From: Octopus vulgaris
Taxonomy: Eukaryota
Reading direction: 5' to 3'
NCBI GenBank assembly: GCA_951406725.2
Contig: OX597817.1
Span: 107,384,001-107,448,000, forward strand
DNA: 64,000 bases
Shown: positions 3,898 to 45,694 of the stretch, one piece after another
Layout: each line of letters starts with the position of its first letter
Position numbering within the stretch: position 1 is the first letter of the stretch
Made by a program: the position numbers and the translations under genes
The notes under the pieces: model-generated
The model's database searches: none
Told to the model about the DNA's origin: nothing
The model's input: the letters and a program-made list of their open reading frames with translations, nothing else

Positions 3898-6270
3898 GTG
3901 TATATGTTTGTGTGTGTGTGTCTGTGTTTGTCCTCCCAACATCGCTTGACAACCGATGCTGGTGTGTTTACGTCCCCGTAACTTAGCGGTTCGGCAAAAG
4001 AGACCGATAGAATAAGTACTAGGCTTACAAAGATTAAGTCCTGGGGTCGATTTGCTCGAATAAAGGCTGTGCTCCAGCATGGCCACAGTCAAATGACTGA
4101 AACATGTAAAAGAGTAAAGAGTATATGTATGTTCAAAATGACTATGGAAGGTAAGGCTGGTATACCGAATTGGCTTGCTACAGCAAGGGCAAATCTTGTT
4201 GCCAAAAATGAAATCACCGAGGTGGCAGGAAACCACAGGCCCATTGCTTGCTTAAACATTATGTAGAAACTGTACACAAGTTGCCTCAATCAATACCTCC
4301 AGAACAACATTGTGACTGATGAACAGGCTGGTGGAAAGAAGGGAGTGTGGGGATGTGCCGTACCAGCTTTTGATAAACAAAGCTGTACTGTCTGAAGTGA
4401 AAAAACAACGTAGAAATCTTGTGACGGTATGGCTTGACTATTGAAAGGCATTTGACTCTATTCCTCATTCATGGCTGTTGAAGTGCCTACATCTGACAAA
4501 AGTACATACTACCTTAATCTCTGCTATAGAGAGACCCACAAAGACATGGACAACAGTTCTTACCCTTGTAACTGAGAACAGGATAATTGTTTCTGACAGT
4601 ATAGGCATTTCAAAGGGAATATTCCAGGGAGATAGTCTTTCTGTACTTCTTTTTTTTTTGGCACTGAATCCATTATCGTTCCTACTGCAGAAAACAAGTG
4701 GTTACATGCTAGGATCTTCAACTGCTAGAAATATCGAAGTAACTCATAAATTCTTTGTAGACGACCTGAAGATTTATGTTAAAAGTGTTTACAATGACAA
4801 AAAACAAATGGAATTAATAACAACATTTTCAGCTGATATAGGCATGGAATTTGACCAAAAGAAATGTTCATATTTGGCTATAGAACGAGGAAAGTCAGTC
4901 CCCCAAACCCAAAACCTGTACATCAACGGTCTCTCTATCTTACCCATTCCACACAAAGAATGTTACAAGTACCTAGGCATAGACGAAAATGTATCATATG
5001 AAGGCATTGTGAATACAATGATCCGAAAATATTACGCCAGACTTAGGAAAATATGGCAGTCGGAACTCTCCTCTTACAACAAAATAATATCCCCCAATGC
5101 ATTTGCAGTACCAGTGCTGATCCCAAAATTTAGAATACTTGATTGGTCTGTAGAGGAAATCCACTCCATAGGTATCAAAACCCGCATAATCCTTATAACT
5201 GGGAACTTCCACAGAAGCAGTGATGTTGACAGGCTCAACCTAAAAAGAAATGAAGGTGGTAGAGGCCTGAGATCAGTGTAGACGGTCTTCGAATCCCGTA
5301 TGGTATCACTCAGGCAGCACCTGCTAAACAACAGCCGCAAAAATAAATGCAGTGCTGAAAAGTGAAGTGAGCAACGTTGTACGAGTTGGCAATGAGCTCC
5401 TCAAGAAGCACTCTCTTCCTGATGATCTCCTGTACAGCCCCAAAACAGCTGGGCTCTCTTACATCAGAGAAGAGCTGGATGGAAAGCACTCAGCATACAA
5501 AAAAAGACTGCATGGGTATGTTACCCAGAAGCTTGAAGACAGTAGAATTGCCACAAAGCGCAGCTTCTCTTGGACACAAGACCACTACATCACACTTTGA
5601 AAGCTATGCGTTTGCAATCCAAGAACAGGAGATTGCCACAAAGTACCTGGTGAACAAGAGAGACTGTGACGCTCTTGTAATCCCAAGGTGCAACCGCATG
5701 TGTAGGCTTTGTCATGTTTCTGTGGAAGACATCGCTCTTGTGATTAGCAGCTGTCCTAAAATGTCATCACAGTACTACCTCCCTATGCAGCACGATGTTG
5801 TTGCTAAAACAATTTACAATGCCATCCAGAAAAAAGACTATCCTGAAATAATCTTAGAAAATCCCTGTTATGGAATTTATTCATAAACACCAACTCAAGG
5901 AATACTGGCGGAATATTCCTATCAAAGCTTCTCTCAAATGTGAACATAACAGGCCTGATATTGTTGTTTGGGACAGAGGGGCAAAAATATGTACCATCAT
6001 AGGGATCAGCTGCCCTGCAGATATAGATATCTCTTCGAAAATCGAAGGATTCTATGGATAACTGCTTCGAAACCTCCAGCTTCTAAATCCAAACTATGAG
6101 TTTATATTAATACCAATAATAATTGGAACGCTTGGTTTTGTTAGTAAATGCTTAAAGGAGAATCTGGATAAACAGATTTTCAGAAAGAGAAATCGACCGG
6201 CTAATTCGTACATTGCGAGTGCAATCTGTGAATGAAAGAGTAAAAATATGCAAGACTTTTCTCAAGTTCC
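3455..6270 (+). mobile_element. Decayed R4/Dong-clade (RLE) non-LTR retrotransposon, interrupted by a SINE
   Basis: RT motifs GIFQGDSLS, HKFFVDDLK, YKYLG and GGRGL (ORF 4478-5281). CRLC zinc-knuckle region (5377-5886) and HNRPDIVVWD restriction-like endonuclease motif (5870-6061). Several stops and frameshifts. Confidence 0.92.
3663..4122 (+). mobile_element. tRNA-derived SINE with internal (TA)n/(TG)n microsatellite
   Basis: A-box-like TGGCTATGTGGTAA and B-box-like GGTTCAGTCCC, then GTGGCACCTTGGGCAA and a TAAAAGA-type tail. Relatives at 20220-20640, 41558-41675 and (minus) 29646-29720, 30820-30935. Confidence 0.85.
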
Positions 6271-11076: not shown

Positions 11077-12965
11077 GACCCATGGTGTATAAGAAGAATA
11101 CAGGCAGAGTTAGATATGCTCTCGAAAGAAATTTCTGTGTTAGACCGAAAGGAGAAAGGGGAGCTTAAAAGCGAACAAAAATACAGGGCACTGAAAAGGA
11201 AGTATAATATTGAAAGAAAGGGCCCAAGAGTGGTAATAGAGGAACTGAAGCAGCGCCTCGTTGCAAAGAAAACAAAGATGGTAAGATACGAACAAAAGTA
11301 AAGGGCTACCACCAGAATAGGTTATTCCGAGTAGATCAGAAGAGATTCTATAAAAAAATAAATGGAGAGTGTACAGAAGAAAAGTTGATACCAGATAACA
11401 GTGAAAGTTATTGGTTTTGGAGTGACATCTGGAGTAGAGACAAGGAGCACAAGAAGGATGCTGAATGGTTGCAATAACTAAAACAAACAGTAGTTTGTCC
11501 AAAACAGACTACTGTTTGTTTTGGCAGAACTAGTCATTTCAGTCAGGGAAGTGAAAGAAATCAGCAAAAAGGTGAGCAACAGGAAGGCCCCGGGACTAGA
11601 TGGAGTTCAAGGCTACTGGATTAAAAGATTTGGTGAATGTCATGCACGAATAGAAGCGCAACGTAACACCTTGTAAAATGCCGACTGAGAAATACCAGAG
11701 TGGTTGACATTGGGTAGGACAGTGCTGTGCTTGAAACAATCGAAAAAGGCAATACGGTAGACAATTACAGGCCGATATGCTGTCTGCCATTTATATGCAA
11801 ATTATTTACTGGAATGCTCGCAGAGTCAATGTACGAACATCTGGACAAAAATGGAGTCCTGCTACATGAGCAGAAGGGTTGCAAGCGTAAGTGCAGAGGT
11901 ACCAAGGATCAGCTCCTGATAGACAAAACTGTACTTAGGGACTGCAAGAGAAGGAAAAGTAACTTAGCCATATCATGGATCGACTATCGTAAGGCATATG
12001 ATATAATCCCACACTCTTGTAAATGGAATGTATGAACCTATTTGGTATTGCATCGAATGTAGAGCGATTGCTTGGAAAAAGTATGGCGAATTGGAGGACG
12101 GATCTGGCAGCATACGGAAGAAGTTTAGGGACAGTAGAAATTAGGAAGAGCATCTTCCAAGGGGACTGCCTGTCCCCACTAATCTTTGTACTGTGCATGA
12201 TACCACTAAAACTGATACCGAGGAAAGCAAAATCTGGGTATGTATTTAAAAGCCGCCAACAGAATGTCAACCATTTGTTATTCATGGATGATCTCAAACT
12301 TTATGGTAAAGATGTTTCCCAATTCAGATTCCTCGTTGATACGGTGTATACTTTCAGTGCTGATATCAGAATGAAATTCGAACTGAGAAAGTGTGGTGTG
12401 TTAGTCTTGAAGAGAGGCAAAATCAAATGTATGGACGGGCCATCGATACCGCCGGGGGAGGTTATGAAGCAGATAGAAGAGACGGGCTATGAGTACTTGT
12501 GGAAAATGATAATGCAAAGATCCTGTGGGATTTTATGATTCAGTGCGACAATGAGATAGAGAATAGGAAGCCAGACATGGTCTTAATTGAGAAAGAAACC
12601 AAACTATGCTGGATCATAGATATAGCACGCCCAGCTGACAACACGGTATGCGATAAGGAAGAAAGAAAAGTCAATAAGGTACGACAGGTTAGCTTGGGAG
12701 GTAAAGCAGTTGTGGTCAACGAAAAAGGTAGTAGCGGTATAAATAATTGTCGGAGCCCTGTGAACAGAGAGTAAAAATTTCGAGAAATACGTGGAACAAA
12801 TAGGGGCTGCAATAAGGGTGGAGCACTTGCAGAAAATAGCACTGCTTGAAACCGCTCGAATATTCCGGAAGGTGCTCGAAAAATAAGAGGTGTTACCTTA
12901 GTTCATTGGGAGTGAACAGCTGACAGCGTAGTACATCTCCGGCGTTAGAAGCTGTGCAAATGCAA
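11074..12965 (+). mobile_element. R4/Dong element with internal deletion, embedded in (TAA)n
   Basis: [43 protein letters not shown] and NRKPDMVLIE. (TAA)n on both sides, the known Dong target repeat. Confidence 0.92.
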
Positions 12966-23342: not shown

Positions 23343-23536
23343 TATGTATGTATGTATGTATGTATGAATGTATGTATGTACGTACCTATGTATGCGTGTG
23401 TGTGTGTGTGTGTATCAACATATTCAAGTTTATCCTTTATGCAAAAGTTCTCGTTGACTGTTAAGTGGCGAATATTTATTAATTCTATACAAGATAAAAC
23501 TAGACTATTGCACCTATTGAAGAGCAGAGTTGCGGT
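23343..23536 (+). repeat. Direct duplicate of about 21725-21921, bracketed by pieces of the 25712-26309 family
   Basis: The unique sequence TATCAACATATTCAAG...CAGAGTTGCGGT is nearly identical at both sites. Confidence 0.92.
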
Positions 23537-23570
23537 AAATATCGGTAGTTCGTTGTGCCATTTATTTACT

Positions 23571-23604
<34 letters not shown>

Positions 23605-24501: not shown

Positions 24502-24795
24502 CATACATACATACATACATACATACATACATACATACATACATACATACATACATACATACATGCATACATACATACATGGCAAGCCTAGAATGCCGTA
24601 TCTGAAAGTGTAATCAGTGCAAGCACCTTACCTAATTAAAACTTAAAAACGAAGTTCTGTGTCACCTAGAGGCCTATATCAGTGCTTTTCAAACTATCTG
24701 ATGTGGCGAACCGGCAGTTTGTTTTCTCCAATGTGCTAGGGACCGGCAATAATTTTTAGTAACATTAATTTATACTGGAAACAATATATATAATA

Positions 24796-25509
24796 ACGAC
24801 GTAAGGGGTATCAGCCATCTGAATGTGGCTAGGGACTGGGCGGGGTGGTGGGGTTTTACTGATGCTTTTAGCCCCAGGCGATCAACGTCACCAGAAGGAC
24901 TGACACTATCTCAGTGTCCTTGTTTGTTTGTAAAGATCCGGGTACTACATACGGACTAGTTTCGAGGTCATTGCCTCTTGTCAACGTATGGTAAGCACCG
25001 GTCTTCGATGAAGGATTCCCTCTACAAACAATATATATAACGTTTTTCACAGTAACCACTGTCACTGATGTAGAAAAACTGTCTGAAAACAATAATAAAT
25101 CTCTGAACGAGATATAAACAGTAACTGCTCGACAACGTAAGGGGTATCAGCCATCTGAATGTGGCTAGGGACTGGGCGAGGTGGTGGGGTGTTACTGATG
25201 ATCAGTGACAGTGGTTACTGTGAAAAACGTTATATATATTGTTTGTAGAGGGAATCCTTCATCGAAGACCGGTGCTTACCATACGTTGACAAGAGGCAAT
25301 GACCTCGAAACTAGTCCGTATGTAGTACCCGGATCTTTACAAACAAACAAGGACACTGAGATAGTGTCAGTCCTTCTGGTGACGTTGATCGCCTGGGGCT
25401 AAAAGCATCAGTAAAACCCCACCACCCCGCCCAGTCCCTAGCCACATTCAGATGGCTGATACCCCTTACGTTGTCGAGCAGTTACTGTTTATATCTCGTT
25501 CAGAGATTT
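24796..25509. mobile_element. Young HHR-bearing foldback element (PLE-type inverted terminus) with 13-bp TSD
   Basis: Arms 24799-25069 and 25201-25471 are apparently identical reverse complements (the ORF track gives the same peptide on both strands). An extra partial arm at 25096-25200 pairs with 25405-25510. AATATATATAATA is duplicated at 24783-24795 and 25510-25522. Confidence 0.9.
25280..25322 (+). ncRNA. Minimal type I hammerhead, U3-A8 core variant; antisense twin 24948-24990
   Basis: CATACG-TTGACAA-GAGG(CAATGA)CCTC-GAAA-CTAG-TC-CGTATG: 6-bp stem I, 4-bp stem II, palindromic ACTAGT stem III and a GUC site. Confidence 0.88.
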
Positions 25510-25711
25510 AATATATATAATAGATATAATAAAAGTTGACAATTTTTTTCTATCTTATATTCATTTTGTAAACAAATAATACAATATTACATAAGCATTT
25601 TATAAACATTTTATAATTTCATTCTTTTCTGGAAACTTGCCGCGTACTGGCAGCTGATGGCTCGCGGACCACCACTCTGAGTAGCACTGACCTATTTGAC
25701 AGTATGTGTTA

Positions 25712-26309
25712 TACATATAAAAGTATATAAATGGTACAACGAAGTACCGATATTTACTGGAAAATAGCGATCGTAATAAATACGACGCTATTGTATAGCT
25801 TCACTGCGTATATACTAGCAAAGACGTGTGTGTGCAACAAACATGAAAAAAATTTGTCTTACCTCTAGGAAGAACATCTGAAAAATGAAAAACCTAGAAA
25901 CGGATAATGCTTTCATTGAAACTTCTTCATTGTTCTCGTTCTGTTAACGTTTTGGCGTTCAGACGAGTGTACTGGCATAGATGTGGCAACATTTGAAATT
26001 TTGTCTATGTATATGCAGCTGATGAGGACAAATCAAATCTACGTTGTCAAACGTATTTGAAGAGTCTGAAACCGGTCCTGCATTATCCGTTTCTAGGTTT
26101 TTCATTTTTCATGTTTGTTGCACACACACATCTTTGCTAGTATATACGCAGTGAAGCTATACAATAGCGTCGTATTTATTACGATCGCTATTTTCCAGTA
26201 AATATCGGTATTTCGTTGTACCATTTATTTACTTTTATATGTATAATTTTACCCTTACGGGCTATCTTTTACTGGAAAGCAATACTTTCGTATTGCATTA
26301 CTATTTTCA
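25712..26309. mobile_element. HHR-bearing foldback element with 16-bp TSD
   Basis: Arms about 25711-25910 and 26080-26243 (the left arm has extra sequence between TGAAAAA repeats), then an unpaired tail 26244-26309. TTGACAGTATGTGTTA is duplicated at 25696-25711 and 26310-26325. Confidence 0.9.
26013..26083 (+). ncRNA. Type I hammerhead with extended stem II
   Basis: ATGCAG-CTGATGA-GGAC..TCAAA..TACGT(loop)ACGTA-TTTGA..GTCT-GAAA-CCGG-TC-CTGCAT. Canonical core and palindromic ACCGGT stem III. Confidence 0.9.
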
Positions 26310-28220: not shown

Positions 28221-29627
28221 CAAACATGCAGGAAGTAAACAGACACCTTTAATTTTCTAAATTTCTGATCTAAGCGTATTAATATATTTTCAGCAGTGTA
28301 GAATTTACAACGTAATTATTCTTTTTCATTCCAGGTGCCATTATATTGAGCATTTGCGATGAGTAACCAAGCCACGCTCAAAAAATTCAGCAGAACTGTC
28401 AGATTTTGAAAGAGGTCGCATTGTTGGGCAATCTGAAGCTGGTCACCGAAATATTGCCAAATATTTTCAAATTCCTTTTGCTACTATTAATAGAATTATA
28501 GTGCAATTCAAAAAGAATCAACAGATTCCCGTCCCAGCCAACCTGGGCCTCGGAAAGTGAGCTTCGAAGTTTGAAGAGAATTGTGGAAAACGAACCCCGT
28601 TCTAAGGCTTCTGATACTGCAAAACAGCTAGAAGTTAGCCCCAGAACGTGTGTTACATATCTGAATAAGCTTAGGTATTATGGACGTGCAGCTAGAAGAA
28701 AACCTCTCCTTCAACCAATTAATATCATGAAAAGAAAAAAATGGGCTAAGGAGATGTCAGAAAAATCCATTTCATTTTAGGATAGAGTGATTTTCTCAGA
28801 TGAATCTAGATTTACATTATTTTCTGACAGTGGACGTGTTTGGGTCTGGAGGCTTCCCAATCAAAAATTTGATTTGTAACGACTCCAACCAGTTGTGAAA
28901 CATGGCGGTATCTCGGGTTCAAATTCCGCCGAGGTCGACTTTACCTTTCATCCTTTCGAGGTCGATAAATTAAGTACCAGTTACGCACTGGGGTCGATGT
29001 AATCGACTTAATACCTATGTCTGTCCTTGTTTGTCCCCTCTGTGTTTAGCCCCTTGTGGGTAATAAAGAAATAGGTATCTCTGTAATGGTATGGGCAGCT
29101 GTCACCAGCAATGGTCGTTCTGAGTTGATCGAATGTGTTGGAACAATAAACTCTGAAGAATACATCGAAATACTTAAGCAAGGACTACTTGCGATGTATT
29201 CACACGATAGCATAACGAAAAATGAGATTTTATTCACGGAAGATGGGGCTCCATGGCAAACAACAAAAAGGAATCAACAATGGTTGACTGAAAATGGGAT
29301 CAAAAAGCCAATCTCCTGACATGAACCCAACTGAACATCTTTGGAGCATACTAGATAGAGCTATACGAAAAATTCAATAGAAACCTAAATCTAAAGATGA
29401 ATCGTTTCGATTGTTGCTTAAAAAGTGGACAATATAATCCACAAGAGACAATCATAAAGCTCATCAGTTCAATGCCAAAAAGAGTTTCTGTATTAAAATC
29501 TGCAAAGGGAATGTCAGCTAAATACTAAAGTATGTCCTACCTATCCATTACATTGCAATTGTTCACTTTGCGTATTAAATAAAAGATTTTGAAAAGTAAA
29601 GGTGTCTATTTACTTCCTGCATGTCTG
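28221..29627 (+). mobile_element. Decayed Tc1 (DD34E) transposon with SINE insertion
   Basis: TIRs of about 37 bp (CA.ACATGCAGGAAGTAAA.AGACACCTTTA.TTTTC). Motifs ARRKPLL, VIFSDESRF, KHGG|ISVMVW, EDGAP and SPDMNPTEHLW. Confidence 0.92.
28915..29073 (+). mobile_element. 5'-truncated SINE inside the Tc1 transposase
   Basis: 8-bp TSD GGTATCTC (28907-28914, 29074-29081). Removing the insert restores KHGGISVMVW. Confidence 0.9.
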
Positions 29628-37717: not shown

Positions 37718-39354
37718 CCGTAAATCCTCGAGTATAATACGCATTCTTTTAAAAAAATTTAAAGGTCAAAATCCCTATATGCGTACTATATACAAGGCTA
37801 AAAATGATAAATATTTTCTAAGCAATGTCCGAGTCTCTATTTGCTGTCCGGCAAAGTTTATTCAGACGCATTTTGTGATGTCGGGTGCGAAAATACCTTA
37901 AGCTAAGCCTGAAAGCAATGAAGTCATAAAAGGATCATCCATAACTTGCAGTAAGCAACATTTATTAAAATAAAAGTATTCAGAACAAAGAATAACATGT
38001 AACAAAAACAATTTGCAAACATATTTACATTCTCATATAACAGTTAAGAACATCACTATTATTGTATTACGCATGCGCGAAAGTGTTTGTTCGACTAGGT
38101 GCTGCTGGCTTAATTACGCACGAATTGTGCTTAATAGTTTAGCGCTAAATAGTTCATCCTGCTGTTTGTATTGGCAGTTTGCATCATTATCGTGGATACT
38201 TAATTAAATACCAGTATTAAATGTTTGAACTACTGTGGGTCTTTAGTAGGGTTTTTTTTTTATAGGCGGGACTTAAACCTCTATATTAATCTCCAATAAA
38301 ATATTTTATACATTACATGCCCATAAAATGCCTCGTAGATCTTATTCAGCTGTGTTTAAACTTGAAGTTATATCATATGCTGAAGAGCATGGTAATAGGG
38401 CCGCCGGAAGAAAATTTGATGTTAACGAAAGCAACGTCAGGTTATGGAGAAGAAATAAAGATGAAATTAAACAGATGCCAAAGATAAAGAAGGCAAGAAG
38501 CGGAGGAAAGCCAAACATCCTGAGCTTGAAAAATTTTTTGCTTGAATGGGTAGAGGAAAGAAGACTTGGTAGAATAGCCATTAATACAGTACATTTGAGG
38601 CTACAGGCAAAACTCATTGCTAAAAAGATAAAACTTAATGAGTCAGAATTTAAAGCATCTCGTGGCATAAAGTCGTTCTTTAAAGCATCACGTGCCATCA
38701 AGGCATAAAGTCGTTCACTAAAGGTGGAAGAGTTCACGCTCCCAACTTGACTTTGATATGCAAATGGATCGTGTATGCATGGAATGAACTTGATTCCCAG
38801 ATTATTGTGAAAGGTTTTATGAAATGTTGTATATCGTCTGCACTGGATGGTACTCAGGATGACGTTGTATAGAAAGATGAAATAAATGAAATTGAATCTT
38901 CTGATGTTGTCTATGAATCTGACGATGATGGAGATTTACATTATAATGACGCTGACATGTTTACGGAGGAACAAATGAAAGTTATTTGATGCTGAAAGTG
39001 ACGTTGAATTTGAATAAATGCTTTTGCTTTTGCTTTTGTAACTGATAGTGATAAATATGTAAAGGCAATTTACTTAATACTTATTTTTTACTTACGTTAT
39101 TACTGTCATTTCTTTATTTTCTGCAAGCAAAATGCACAAAAAGCTACACGTTTGCATTATGTTATATATACAATAATAATAAAGGACGTTACCGTATACA
39201 TTTTTACAAACCAAGCACGTTATATAGACCTCTTTGACTCAAGCTAGAGAAGGGCTGCGTATTATACACAAGGTTTAAGTTTTTCAGAGGTACAGCCCCC
39301 TAAAAATCCCCTGCGTATTATACTTAAGGGCGGACTATACTCAAGGATTCACGG
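37718..39354 (+). mobile_element. pogo/Tigger-family transposon with the DDE domain deleted
   Basis: TIRs CCGTAAATCCTCGAGTATA / TATACTCAAGGATTCACGG with TA TSD. ORF 38328-38708 is a Brinker-like HTH plus CENP-B HTH (RRSYSAVFKL..AAGRKF.V....VRLW; FKASRG). C-terminal remnant WIVYAW..IVKGFMKCCISSALDGTQDD at about 38765-38870. Confidence 0.92.
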
Positions 39355-40492: not shown

Positions 40493-40612
40493 ACACACAC
40501 ACACACACACACACGCACGCGCGCGCGCACACACACACACAGTCTCCATGTTGGACCACTGAACTCAACACGCATTTTTTTTCATTCTCTCTCTAGTTAT
40601 TTCCTCTTATTC

Positions 40613-40648
40613 CTTTCTGTCGAAGAGCGTAGGCTCGAAACGTAAAAG
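40613..40648 (+). ncRNA. Minimal type I hammerhead with mutated core (CTGTCGA)
   Basis: CTTT-CTGTCGA-A-GAGC(GTAG)GCTC-GAAA-CG-TA-AAAG, the same architecture as 54465-54499. Confidence 0.65.
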
Positions 40649-40696
40649 ACTTTTTCATTTTTTGAGTGTCAAATTAATACACTTGCTTCTTGTTCC

Positions 40697-42093: not shown

Positions 42094-43375
42094 GAGGGGC
42101 GTTCAATAAGTAATGCCCCTGACCCACTTCCCATAGCAGTAGAGCAACGAAACTTGGCACAGTTATTAGTCTTTTTCTACAGCGGAACCACCCAGAGTTA
42201 CGCATTTCTCCCATCGTTTGATGCGGCTCTGGAGACCGTTTTTGTAGAAGAACCCAGCTTGGTCCTCCAACCTCAACGTGACTTCAGAAATCAAGGCTGC
42301 ATCATCTGGGAAACGCTTTCCTTTCAAAAACAACTTCATGATTGGGAAGAGATGAAAATCAGAGGGTGCAACGTCAGGGGGGATGGGGAGGAGTTCATAG
42401 CCATACGCCTGTGCTTCTGATCTGGCGACAAGCGAGTTGTGGACCGGAGCGTTGTCCTGCAGGAGGAGGATGCCTTTGCTGATCTTGCCCCGCCTCTTGA
42501 TTTTGATAACTTCTCTTAATTTCCTCAAAAGTGAAGCATAATAGGCTCCTGCAATTGTGGTACCCTTTGCCAGGAAATCTGTCATCACTACTCCGTCCTG
42601 GTCCCAGAAGACTGTGAGCATGACCTTGCCAGCGGAGGGCTGCACCATTGCCTTCTTTGGAGGGGGTGAGTCACGGTGCTTCCACTGCATTGACTGGGAT
42701 TTGGTCTCTGGATCATCGTGATGGACCCAGGTTTCATCCTATGTAATCAGTCTTTTGAAAAATTTTGACTCATCTTCTTGGCACATCTCCAAATTCACCC
42801 TCGAGCACTCGACGCGTTCTTGCTTCTGGAAAGGCGTGAGCAACCTGGGAATCCATCTGGCAGACACCTTTTGCATATGCAAATGGTCATGAATGATAGT
42901 TTCCACATACCCGGTACTAATCTTGACCTCATGGACTATTTGGCGAATAATTATGCGTCGATCTTCCAAAATGGCAGCCTCAACTTGACGGACAGATGCC
43001 TCATCAATGGCAGAAGGGGGCGACCAGATCTGGGAGCTGTTTCCACAGAGTTCCGACCATGTTTGAATTCACGATGCCAGCGTTTTACAAGGTCATATGA
43101 TGGGGCATCATCACCATAAGTTACTTTCATTTCATCAAAAGTCTCCCGTGGTGTGCGTCCTTTCAAATACAAAAACCGGATCACTGCTCGACACTCAACA
43201 GGCTCCATTTCACACTTGACTCGGTTCAAACACCTGTAAATCAGAAACCACAATTAATTCAGAGCTGTAATTTGCCACTTACTCTATAGAGATATAAATG
43301 ATTGCACATGCAAAATTTCAGCTATATCAAACAACTGCAAGTGGGTCAGCGGCATTACTTATTGAACGTCCCTCG
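42093..43375 (-). mobile_element. Full-length but inactivated mariner (DD34D; probably irritans-like)
   Basis: TIRs CGAGGGGCGTTCAATAAGTAATGCC.CTGACCCACTT with TA TSD. Motifs WIPRLL, DETW, QDNAPVH and PDVAPSDFHLF. One stop, one frameshift, and a damaged YSPDL motif. Confidence 0.95.
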
Positions 43376-44506: not shown

Positions 44507-45694
44507 AAGGGTGCGTAAGATATTTGAGGACAGATTTATGATTATAAAATAAACAGATATATAATAACAGATAACTTTATTTATCAAAAAATGCTATGAG
44601 GATGAAGATAAACCTTCTTTTCTAGAATGTTATTCAATAAAGCCACCTTCAACTTCTAAAACTGTTTCTATATGACATCTAAACATCTACATGCTCAAAT
44701 CAAGTGGTCCTGGTTCATTTTGGACATCACTCTGACTATGCCAGCTTTCAAAGAATCTTTGGTGTTATGGGTGTGTTCATTGACCTCTCTCTCTACAAAG
44801 CTCCACTTGTAATAGTCCAATGGATTGAGATCTGGGGAATTAAGAGGCCAAATATGAGGAGTTATGTGATACTGAAAATTTTCAGCCATCCATTTCTGTG
44901 TTAGTAGGGCCATGTGTGATAGTGCAGAGTCTTAGTGAAACACATATGGCCTTCATTGCATACAATGCCTATCCAGAGCTTAACAGTTATTTCCAGGACC
45001 TCAATGTAGGCGGCAGAGTTAACTCTAAGGCCTTGTGGAAAGAAGTAAGGATGCATCAAATGTCGTTTCATTGCTGACAACTCCTTAAACCATAACAGTT
45101 GAAGGAAATTTTGTATGCATAACACTTGGAACTTCAGAAGGGTCTGCATATAACCATGTGTCATTTCTTCTGTTAACGTTTTGATCTTAGTCGAAGTTTT
45201 TCTGCTGGATTTTTCCGTTTGTTTAAGAGCCATTTAGACCTCATGTAGTGATTTTCTTTTGTTTTTTCTGACAAATTGACCTTTCCTCATTATATGAAAC
45301 TTATATCTGATGTCTTCGTGGACAACATTTCTGACTGTTTCTTCTGATACATGGAGAACTCTTGCAATTGACCCCATGGACTTTCTGGGATTTTTAATCA
45401 ATGGTCTGTCGAACTTGCTGAATAAATTCAGGTGTTCTAATTTTAGAGCCTTTAGAATGCTTTCTTTATGCTTTGATACTGGTGATACGTTTCCCTCTTC
45501 AGTCTCTAGCTCCTTACAAACTTTGTACACGAAAGATCTGGCAACTTTTAAAAATTGAGATATCTCTAAATTGATATGCTCAGCCTTTATTAGGGTCTAC
45601 CATTATTATTTTCTGAAACAAAGATTATACAGAGTTAGCAAAAAATGCAGCAATGACCCCAAAAAGGTTTGTCCTCAAATACCTTATGCACCCT

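What the first reader, a model, noticed from the sequence alone, without database searches (positions are those of the whole stretch)
24796..25509. Very young 271-bp perfect foldback with intact UUGACAA hammerheads and a TSD
Seen: apparently identical arms, a third partial arm, a 13-bp TSD and insertion into a hAT MITE. The HHR has perfect stems. Inference: recent activity. Read-through from either strand would form long dsRNA that sequesters the ribozyme and could be a substrate for ADAR or Dicer.
Basis: partly seen in the sequence, partly recalled or inferred. Interest (0 to 1): 0.72.

Follow-up and report, generated by a model that had tools for sequence, protein, structure and literature searches.

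The report
Young two-armed hammerhead retrozyme insertion
The mirror-image stretch is one very little-diverged copy of a common 358-base non-coding repeat that carries a hammerhead-ribozyme motif; its two arms end at two different fixed points, which likely records a borrowed Penelope-type enzyme copying the repeat's RNA in from both cut ends of the target, so it is likely an insertion footprint rather than a purpose-built double-stranded-RNA switch.

Summary
Confirmed: arms 24799-25069 / 25201-25471 are 271/271 identical, a 13-bp TSD flanks the 714-bp insert, and it splits a hAT-type MITE whose empty siblings exist. It is not an artefact and not unique: it belongs to a high-copy ~358-nt tandem family with a covarying type I hammerhead (U3-A8 core, palindromic helix III, so dimer-dependent), i.e. 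a non-LTR retrozyme. Head-to-head copies are common (32 of 58 loci); 23 of 24 classifiable ones have one short end and one ~40-nt 'tail' end, the Penelope signature. Best reading: twin priming by a Penelope-like RT. Both arms share a 21-nt deletion and a substitution found nowhere else, while the inner partial unit lacks the substitution, which favours an uncleaved, non-uniform multimer as template. Each arm carries the genome's snRNA-promoter motif 60 nt before a start that a Tx1 LINE targets, as it does U2 +1; its own transcripts would run outward and miss the hairpin. ADAR/Dicer use, cleavage and polymorphism are untested. The scan found the twin-priming, promoter and Tx1 features before on other DNA of this genome.

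The parts
24680..24795 (+). left part of the host hAT-type MITE (TIR CAGTGCT... from 24680)
   Evidence: siblings 81-89% identical, contiguous with the right part
24783..24795 (+). left target-site duplication, 13 bp, AT-rich
24796..25131 (-). left arm: one whole 336-nt monomer (358-nt family unit less a 21-nt hairpin deletion), RNA-sense on the minus strand; outer end = family 'short' end plus a few reiterated bases
25132..25200 (-). inner partial unit (last 69 nt of the preceding monomer); differs from both arms at 25179 and 25191
25201..25471 (+). right arm, RNA-sense on the plus strand, exact inverse of 24799-25069
25472..25509 (+). 38-nt 'tail' extension beyond the short end (Penelope-type second end)
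   Evidence: PMC8557442, PMC11167929
25201..25207 (+). snRNA-promoter-like motif ATCAGTG, 60 nt before the predicted start; upstream context cut off by the junction
   Evidence: motif and spacing shown; promoter function inferred
25063..25069 (-). same motif on the left arm, with full upstream context
25258..25277 (+). predicted transcription start (ATCG at 25261) and empty target site of a Tx1-type LINE; mirror copy 24993-25012 on the minus strand
25280..25322 (+). type I hammerhead: helix I 25280-85/25317-22, core UUGACAA 25286-92, helix II 25293-96/25303-06, GAAA, palindrome ACUAGU 25310-15, predicted cleavage after C25316
24948..24990 (-). identical hammerhead on the left arm
25510..25522 (+). 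right target-site duplication
25523..25689 (+). right part of the host MITE (ends ...AGCACTG)

Best explanation
The foldback is a young copy of a high-copy 358-nt hammerhead-bearing repeat (a non-LTR retrozyme) that was likely written into an AT-rich site of an older MITE by a borrowed Penelope-like reverse transcriptase/endonuclease priming from both cut target ends. Steps: (1, shown) a 13-bp staggered duplication flanks two arms whose RNA-sense strands point outward; (2, shown) one arm stops at the family's short end, the other about 40 nt further at the tail end, as in 23 of 24 classifiable head-to-head copies; (3, inferred) each DNA end primed at one of two adjacent initiation sites on the RNA and the two cDNAs were joined bluntly where they stopped; (4, inferred) both copied the same monomer of an uncleaved, non-uniform multimeric RNA, which is why the arms are identical and share private changes while the inner partial unit, copied from the neighbouring monomer, does not; (5, inferred) the family is transcribed from an internal snRNA-type promoter starting at ATCG just before the ribozyme, so both arms would fire outward; (6, predicted) each arm gives a single dimer-dependent hammerhead and lacks a conserved hairpin, so this copy is probably a dead-end; long dsRNA would form only if a host transcript crosses it.
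For: Family size and architecture (2539 candidates, 40 scored). End polarity: of 58 de-duplicated clusters 32 are head-to-head, 24 have both ends classifiable, 23 short+tail, 1 tail+tail, 0 short+short (binomial P 1.5e-6 against 0.5); 14 of 15 among loci found with internal queries, own locus left out (my count). Inverted 5'-truncated copies and a one-sided 30-40-bp tail are described Penelope features (PMC8557442 passages); a purified Penelope protein nicks and extends both strands, starts at two adjacent RNA sites and uses uncleaved RNA (PMC11167929, parts 1-2). An intact, young Neptune-like PLE (RT hit, weak GIY-YIG hit E 0.005, repeats 98-99.8% alike in 7 of 8 loci) is in this genome and ends in CGTT at (AT)n, as the short end does. 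Hammerhead covariation over 17 sequences: 95.9% cells paired, 6 of 13 pairs with two-sided change, slid controls 15-49%; core pair 3-8 seen as U-A 6, U-G 6, C-G 4, other 1. Private deletion: 0 other copies among 32 candidates. Promoter motif at -62..-55 in 36 of 42 distinct U1/U2/U5 upstream sequences and at -56..-61 in full monomers, including 68% and 77% identical sister families.
Against: No sequence similarity between the monomer and the PLE found, so the mobiliser is not identified. The donor with the 21-nt deletion is not in this assembly, which arm-to-arm conversion would also explain; the multimer inference rests on one diagnostic base, and across loci with three or more overlapping units private variants were in all units 3 times, in both arms but not all units 2 times, in one arm 2 times. 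5' ends of copies show no clear pile-up at the predicted start. The snRNA upstream sequences are tandem paralogues, not 42 independent cases. Loci were the top hits of similarity searches, not a random sample; L002 and L004 are one segmental duplication. No cleavage, expression or start site was measured.
Confidence: 0.78

Rival explanations
1. Same twin priming, but on a single circular monomer RNA; the arms' shared substitution and the inner unit's difference arose later (conversion between arms or back-mutation).
For: Animal retrozymes are expressed as circles and were proposed to be copied from them (PMC7229834, part 4). Both arms read through the cleavage site, as on a ligated circle. In L020 and L184 private variants are in all three overlapping units.
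Against: At monomer position 299 the two arms are derived and the inner unit has the majority base; a monomer circle should give all three the same base. Other head-to-head copies show arm divergence of mostly 1-6%, so arms are not routinely homogenised.
Confidence: 0.25
2. The copy is of ordinary age for its subfamily and the perfect identity comes from arm-to-arm gene conversion or hairpin repair.
For: Arms share a deletion and a substitution with no donor in the assembly; counted as about 400 unique nt with 2 substitutions the copy is not significantly younger than the subfamily mean (Poisson P 0.11).
Against: TSD 13/13 intact; spacer and tail match the majority; only 2 of the other long arm pairs come near (L007 1/296, L185 0/98); shared private variants also occur in visibly diverged arm pairs (L061, L020, L184), as expected from a common template.
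Confidence: 0.12
3. One reading: the foldback acts as a long dsRNA that silences the ribozyme and feeds ADAR or Dicer.
For: The 714-nt read-through folds into one hairpin, -602 kcal/mol against -205 for shuffles; either strand would hold one sense hammerhead paired with its complement.
Against: The structure is a by-product shared by many copies with junctions spread over the monomer; internal promoters would point outward; no host exon found in the window; the two shared or private substitutions here are not A-to-G.
Confidence: 0.1
4. One cDNA folded back on itself (or an assembly chimera mirrored the sequence).
For: Perfect identity of the arms; a short hairpin-like sequence at the junction.
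Against: Each arm holds sequence the other lacks (left: monomer 41-62 and the inner unit; right: the tail after the short end). The flanks are collinear halves of one MITE with a TSD, not mirrored. The same architecture recurs on many contigs.
Confidence: 0.03

Closest known systems
Metazoan non-LTR retrozymes (Cervera & de la Pena 2020, PMC7229834; Li, Clavereau & Pollet 2026, bioRxiv 10.64898/2026.07.22.740005)
   Same: Non-coding tandem monomer of 150-450 bp (mussel 350-390), type I hammerhead, GC under 50%, long TSD, PLEs in the same genome.
   Different: Neither text that I read describes head-to-head insertions with fixed short/tail ends or an snRNA-type promoter; no homology to a PLE pseudo-LTR was found here; this copy has no two co-oriented ribozymes; RNA circles untested.
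Penelope-like element insertions (Craig et al. 2021, PMC8557442; Frangieh et al. 2024, PMC11167929)
   Same: Partial tandem plus adjacent inverted 5'-truncated copy, 30-40-bp tail at one end, AT-rich/microsatellite targets, two adjacent initiation sites.
   Different: No ORF; here each of the two sites is tied to one arm of the same insertion (23 of 24).
U3-A8 hammerhead variant of Schistosoma PLEs (Cervera & de la Pena 2014, PMC4209133)
   Same: U3-A8 instead of C3-G8; palindromic helix III for dimer cleavage; pairs of motifs 100-700 bp apart on opposite strands were noted there.
   Different: Canonical-size helices I and II here; C-G, U-G and U-A states all occur within one family group.
Newt satellite 2 (snRNA-type promoter; seen only as cited in PMC2220036, the original paper was not held)
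   Same: Hammerhead tandem repeat with an internal snRNA-type promoter.
   Different: Invertebrate, dispersed, Penelope-type ends; promoter here is inferred from motif and spacing only.
Target-specific Tx1 LINEs: Keno (U2), Tx1L, Tx1-Mar (Kojima 2015, PMC4494074 passages)
   Same: A Tx1-type LINE with long TSDs inserted in a multicopy target, U2 among them.
   Different: One family hits both U2 +1 and the retrozyme's predicted start; the window's copy has empty target sites.

Membership tests
non-LTR retrozyme | tandem non-coding monomer of 150-450 bp, many dispersed copies | tested here: met
   358-nt unit, arrays up to about 3.5 units per arm, 2539 candidates
non-LTR retrozyme | type I hammerhead with conserved core and covarying helices | tested here: met
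   below Rfam gathering score
non-LTR retrozyme | TSD longer than 4 bp, no LTR/PBS/PPT | tested here: met
   13-bp TSD with empty-site siblings; PBS/PPT not searched separately
non-LTR retrozyme | active copy: two consecutive co-oriented units with complete hammerheads (Li et al. criterion) | tested here: not met
   this copy has one per strand; other loci of the family meet it (L002, L011, L207, L214)
non-LTR retrozyme | self-cleavage and circular RNA | not testable with these tools
   only contigs of runs guessed to be RNA were available
Penelope-mobilised (non-autonomous PLE) | partial tandem plus adjacent inverted 5'-truncated copy | tested here: met
   32 of 58 clusters head-to-head
Penelope-mobilised (non-autonomous PLE) | 30-40-bp tail at one end only | tested here: met
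   23 of 24; tail here 38 nt beyond 25471
Penelope-mobilised (non-autonomous PLE) | 3'-end homology to an autonomous PLE | tested here: inconclusive
   no blastn hit to the one PLE family examined (8 loci); shared terminal CGTT and (AT)n target only; other PLE families not examined
snRNA-type (PSE) promoter | motif shared with this genome's U1/U2/U5 genes at about -60 | tested here: met
   background 16 sites in 128,000 strand-bases
snRNA-type (PSE) promoter | capped start at the predicted +1, SNAPc dependence | not testable with these tools
   no raw RNA reads
hAT MITE (host) | short TIRs starting CAG, 8-bp TSD, no ORF, many copies | tested here: met
   (TSD 6/8); family features recalled
hAT MITE (host) | TIRs shared with a hAT transposase element | not tested
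   none
ADAR/Dicer substrate | transcript across both arms with A-to-G clusters or small RNAs | not testable with these tools
   fold prediction only

The most novel reading that the evidence does not exclude
This insertion is a snapshot of the unexplained Penelope inversion step: a dimeric enzyme primes both target ends, one at each of two fixed RNA sites, on the same monomer of an uncleaved multimeric retrozyme RNA (not a monomer circle), the RNA being made from a captured snRNA-type promoter that a Tx1 LINE in turn hijacks along with U2 genes.
Probability: 0.35. Interest if true: 0.72.

Novelty: new member of a known kind. Interest (0 to 1): 0.5.

Why it matters
How Penelope-like elements form their tandem/inverted insertions is stated as open (PMC8557442), and whether retrozymes are copied from circles or linear multimers, and by which enzyme, is hypothesis (PMC7229834; Li 2026). 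A short non-coding family with many young two-armed copies, a strict one-short/one-tail rule and an intact PLE in the same genome makes both questions testable in vitro and by sequence. This locus adds a diagnostic case: private changes shared by the arms but not by the inner unit. As a dsRNA source the single locus matters little; the family as a whole may supply many such hairpins in an animal group known (recalled) for heavy A-to-I editing.

Tried and rejected
Rfam at gathering score: no hit in the window; by E-value only a weak HH9 match in a sister family. Run search: no RNA holder listed. Contigs of four DNA-type runs laid on 24590-25131 break inside the repeats; no listed piece spans either junction or the deletion, so presence/absence could not be read. 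Contigs of four runs guessed to be RNA hold family pieces of 90-99% identity, none specific to this copy, with no A-to-G place listed; contigs cannot show start, strand or level. The junction at monomer 63/288-290 recurs in L002-L004, which suggested a hot spot at the promoter motif, but those hits were ranked by likeness to the whole palindrome, share descent, and junctions in the wider set are spread: unresolved. A 3'-box near the tail was considered from U1/U2/U5 downstream sequences; the spacing fits poorly and it was not tested further. The Tx1 LINE was considered as mobiliser and rejected: it inserts into the monomer with its own TSD and shares no 3' end. Alignments A1 and A2 held a wrong row each and the structure was out of register; only A3 is used. 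Paper searches: hammerhead+Penelope+inverted+pLTR, Tx1+Keno+U2 (36), newt satellite 2 (39, 51), retrozyme+PSE+snRNA (49), octopus+hammerhead (76), Tx1+snRNA+promoter (77), Penelope+twin priming (80): none listed a paper on this family, on twin priming of retrozymes or on a retrozyme-targeting Tx1; the library lacks most subscription journals and Repbase, and supplements were not read (bioRxiv supplements closed; those of PMC4209133 and PMC7229834 list hammerhead families and may include this one).

Full report
Observation. The arms 24799-25069 and 25201-25471 are exact reverse complements over 271 bp; with three more bases at each outer end there is one mismatch. A 69-nt third unit at 25132-25200 repeats the start of the left arm with differences at 25134, 25179 and 25191. 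The insert 24796-25509 is flanked by AATATATATAATA on both sides. The flanks are the two halves of one TIR-bounded repeat (24680-25689; 933 candidates, 40 scored); in 13 of the 19 sibling loci examined both halves lie side by side with one copy of the duplicated stretch (my reading). The TSD and host are therefore real, and a mirrored chimera is excluded because the flanks are collinear.

The element. The window lies in a 2.8-Gb, 227-contig animal genome (octopus-like by inference and by the wording of earlier scan notes). The insert belongs to a family with 2539 candidate places (40 scored), built of a ~358-nt unit in tandem and inverted arrays. In RNA sense the arms point outward from the junction at 25200/25201. 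Left: the last 69 nt of one monomer, then a whole monomer to the family's short end. Right: monomer position 63 to the end, then a tail. Each arm holds sequence the other lacks, so neither is a simple fold-back copy of the other.

The ribozyme. Each arm has one type I hammerhead: helix I 6/6, core UUGACAA, helix II 4/4, GAAA, the palindrome ACUAGU, predicted cut after C25316. Across 17 sequences from this and sister families 95.9% of cells pair, 6 of 13 pairs change on both sides, and slid controls give 15-49%; the core 3-8 pair is U-A in 6, U-G in 6, C-G in 4, unpaired in 1 (related sequences, so the shuffle control is not a probability). U3-A8 is a described natural variant (PMC4209133, parts 1-2 of 4 read). 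Helix III cannot close as 2 bp round a 2-nt loop; a two-molecule form evaluates at -23.0 kcal/mol against -3.1 for a monomer with one pair, as for dimer-dependent animal hammerheads. Rfam does not reach threshold. Size, GC, ribozyme type and TSD fit non-LTR retrozymes (PMC7229834, passages and part 4 of 6; bioRxiv 10.64898/2026.07.22.740005, parts 1-3 of 5).

How the foldback arose. From 110 fetched loci, 58 distinct clusters remained after removing duplicates and clusters cut by a locus edge (two of the 58 are short spurious matches): 32 head-to-head, 25 single-orientation, 1 other. Of 24 head-to-head clusters with both ends at a canonical site, 23 have one short end and one tail end, 1 has two tails, none two short ends (P 1.5e-6); 8 had an end disrupted or unclassified. 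Among loci found with internal queries, own locus left out, the count is 14 of 15. L002 and L004 are one duplication. Even inverted pieces of 20-29 nt consist of the tail (L063, L067, L071). Adjacent inverted copies and a one-sided tail are Penelope features (PMC8557442, passages), and a purified Penelope protein extends both strands, starts at two adjacent RNA sites that define the tail, and prefers uncleaved RNA (PMC11167929, parts 1-2 of 4). I infer twin priming, one site per target end. The genome holds an intact Neptune-like PLE with near-identical repeats that also ends in CGTT at (AT)n, but it shows no blastn similarity to the monomer, so the partner is a candidate only.

Age and template. 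Against the majority of 11 close loci, both arms carry one substitution (monomer 299) and a 21-nt deletion of a conserved hairpin; the inner unit carries a different substitution and the majority base at 299. No other copy among 32 candidates has the deletion junction; three other, different deletions of the same hairpin occur. Other arm pairs differ by mostly 1-6%. One private substitution in about 670 nt against a mean near 1.3% gives P 0.0015; if the arms were homogenised the figure is P 0.11 (mean computed by me). So the copy is likely among the youngest, with conversion not excluded. The pattern fits two cDNAs copying the same monomer of a non-uniform multimer; a monomer circle needs an extra event. 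This rests on one base, and the family-wide tally is mixed (3 all units, 2 both arms but not all units, 2 one arm).

Promoter and LINE target. A Tx1-type LINE (APE, RT, zf-RVT) sits at monomer 120-140 in related loci. Of 30 LINE 3' ends fetched (40 scored of 121 candidates; two are the query's own locus), 19 run into this or sister hammerhead families at ATCG, 4 into whole U2 genes at +1, 1 into a U2 stub, and 6 into other sequence. ATCAGT(G/C) lies at -62..-55 in 7 of 7 U2, 18 of 22 U1 and 11 of 13 U5 upstream sequences (paralogues, not independent), and at -56..-61 before ATCG in full monomers, including sister families at 68% and 77% identity. I infer an snRNA-type promoter; newt satellite 2 is a precedent (seen only as cited in PMC2220036). 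In the window the motif is at 25201 (+) and 25069 (-), so both promoters would fire outward and give single-arm RNAs with one hammerhead each. Copy 5' ends do not pile up at that start, which is against or neutral.

The dsRNA idea. A read-through RNA is predicted to form the full hairpin. That needs a host transcript; Pfam hits in 150 of 173 open frames were all transposon domains, which does not exclude an intron. Run data could not test editing, small RNAs or polymorphism.

Verdict. Observation confirmed; youth likely; the structure is the family's usual Penelope-type insertion footprint. New member of a known kind. Earlier scan notes on other DNA of this genome reached the twin-priming, promoter and Tx1 readings; I had reached and tested them before looking, and they are not independent support. 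Interest 0.5, carried by the family-level rule and the diagnostic pattern at this locus.

Noticed in passing
L043:3256-9445 / L044:572-6747 (G000:C4:124.12-124.14 Mb): 12.4-kb palindrome, 99.1% identical arms: a retrozyme head-to-head insertion with a full-length Tx1 LINE at the same site in each arm. Retrozyme parts next to the LINE differ by about 4% while the LINEs are near-identical, which favours two separate recent insertions.
   Followed up: partly
L002, L003, L004 (G000:C2 152.13 and 152.39 Mb; C4 124.13 Mb): Three loci share the same palindrome centre (monomer 63/288); L002 and L004 are a segmental duplication, but L003 on another contig shares the centre too, by an unknown route. The window's own junction (63/290) is nearly the same in another subfamily.
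   Followed up: partly
L109-L113 (G000:C3 20.79-20.84 Mb; C23 43.31 Mb): U2 snRNA gene clusters with Tx1 LINEs inserted at +1, some in tandem; LINE 5' ends carry a U2 stub followed by a stub like a sister retrozyme's start.
   Followed up: partly
L241-L248: Young Neptune-like PLE family (5269 candidates) with ~980-aa ORFs; its minimal hammerhead reads CUGUUGA in the core (A6 replaced by U; CUGUCGA, CUGUAGA in older copies).
   Followed up: partly
window 24796-24798; L074, L197, L005: A few reiterated bases (CGT or ACGTT) at the short end recur in several copies, suggesting slippage at priming.
   Followed up: partly
L072: A single-arm copy with 3 A-to-G among 7 substitutions, two adjacent; possibly editing recorded in the template RNA.
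   Followed up: no
window 24779-24793 and 25026-25040: 15 identical bases between the MITE target region and an internal AT-rich stretch of the monomer; not seen as a rule at other targets, probably chance.
   Followed up: partly
window 25709-26246: A second inverted-repeat element (142-bp arms, 98% complementary) directly beside the host MITE; related ends at 23530-23582.
   Followed up: no
window 40569-40685: 76% match to the hammerhead region of the PLE pseudo-LTR.
   Followed up: no
window 4445-5278, 11718-12535, 28502-28777, 38277-38705, 42169-43253, 44698-44931: Fragments of LINE reverse transcriptases and Tc1/mariner/pogo transposases.
   Followed up: no
L094: A Tx1 3' end followed by ATCG and an unidentified sequence; possibly another snRNA-type transcript start.
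   Followed up: no
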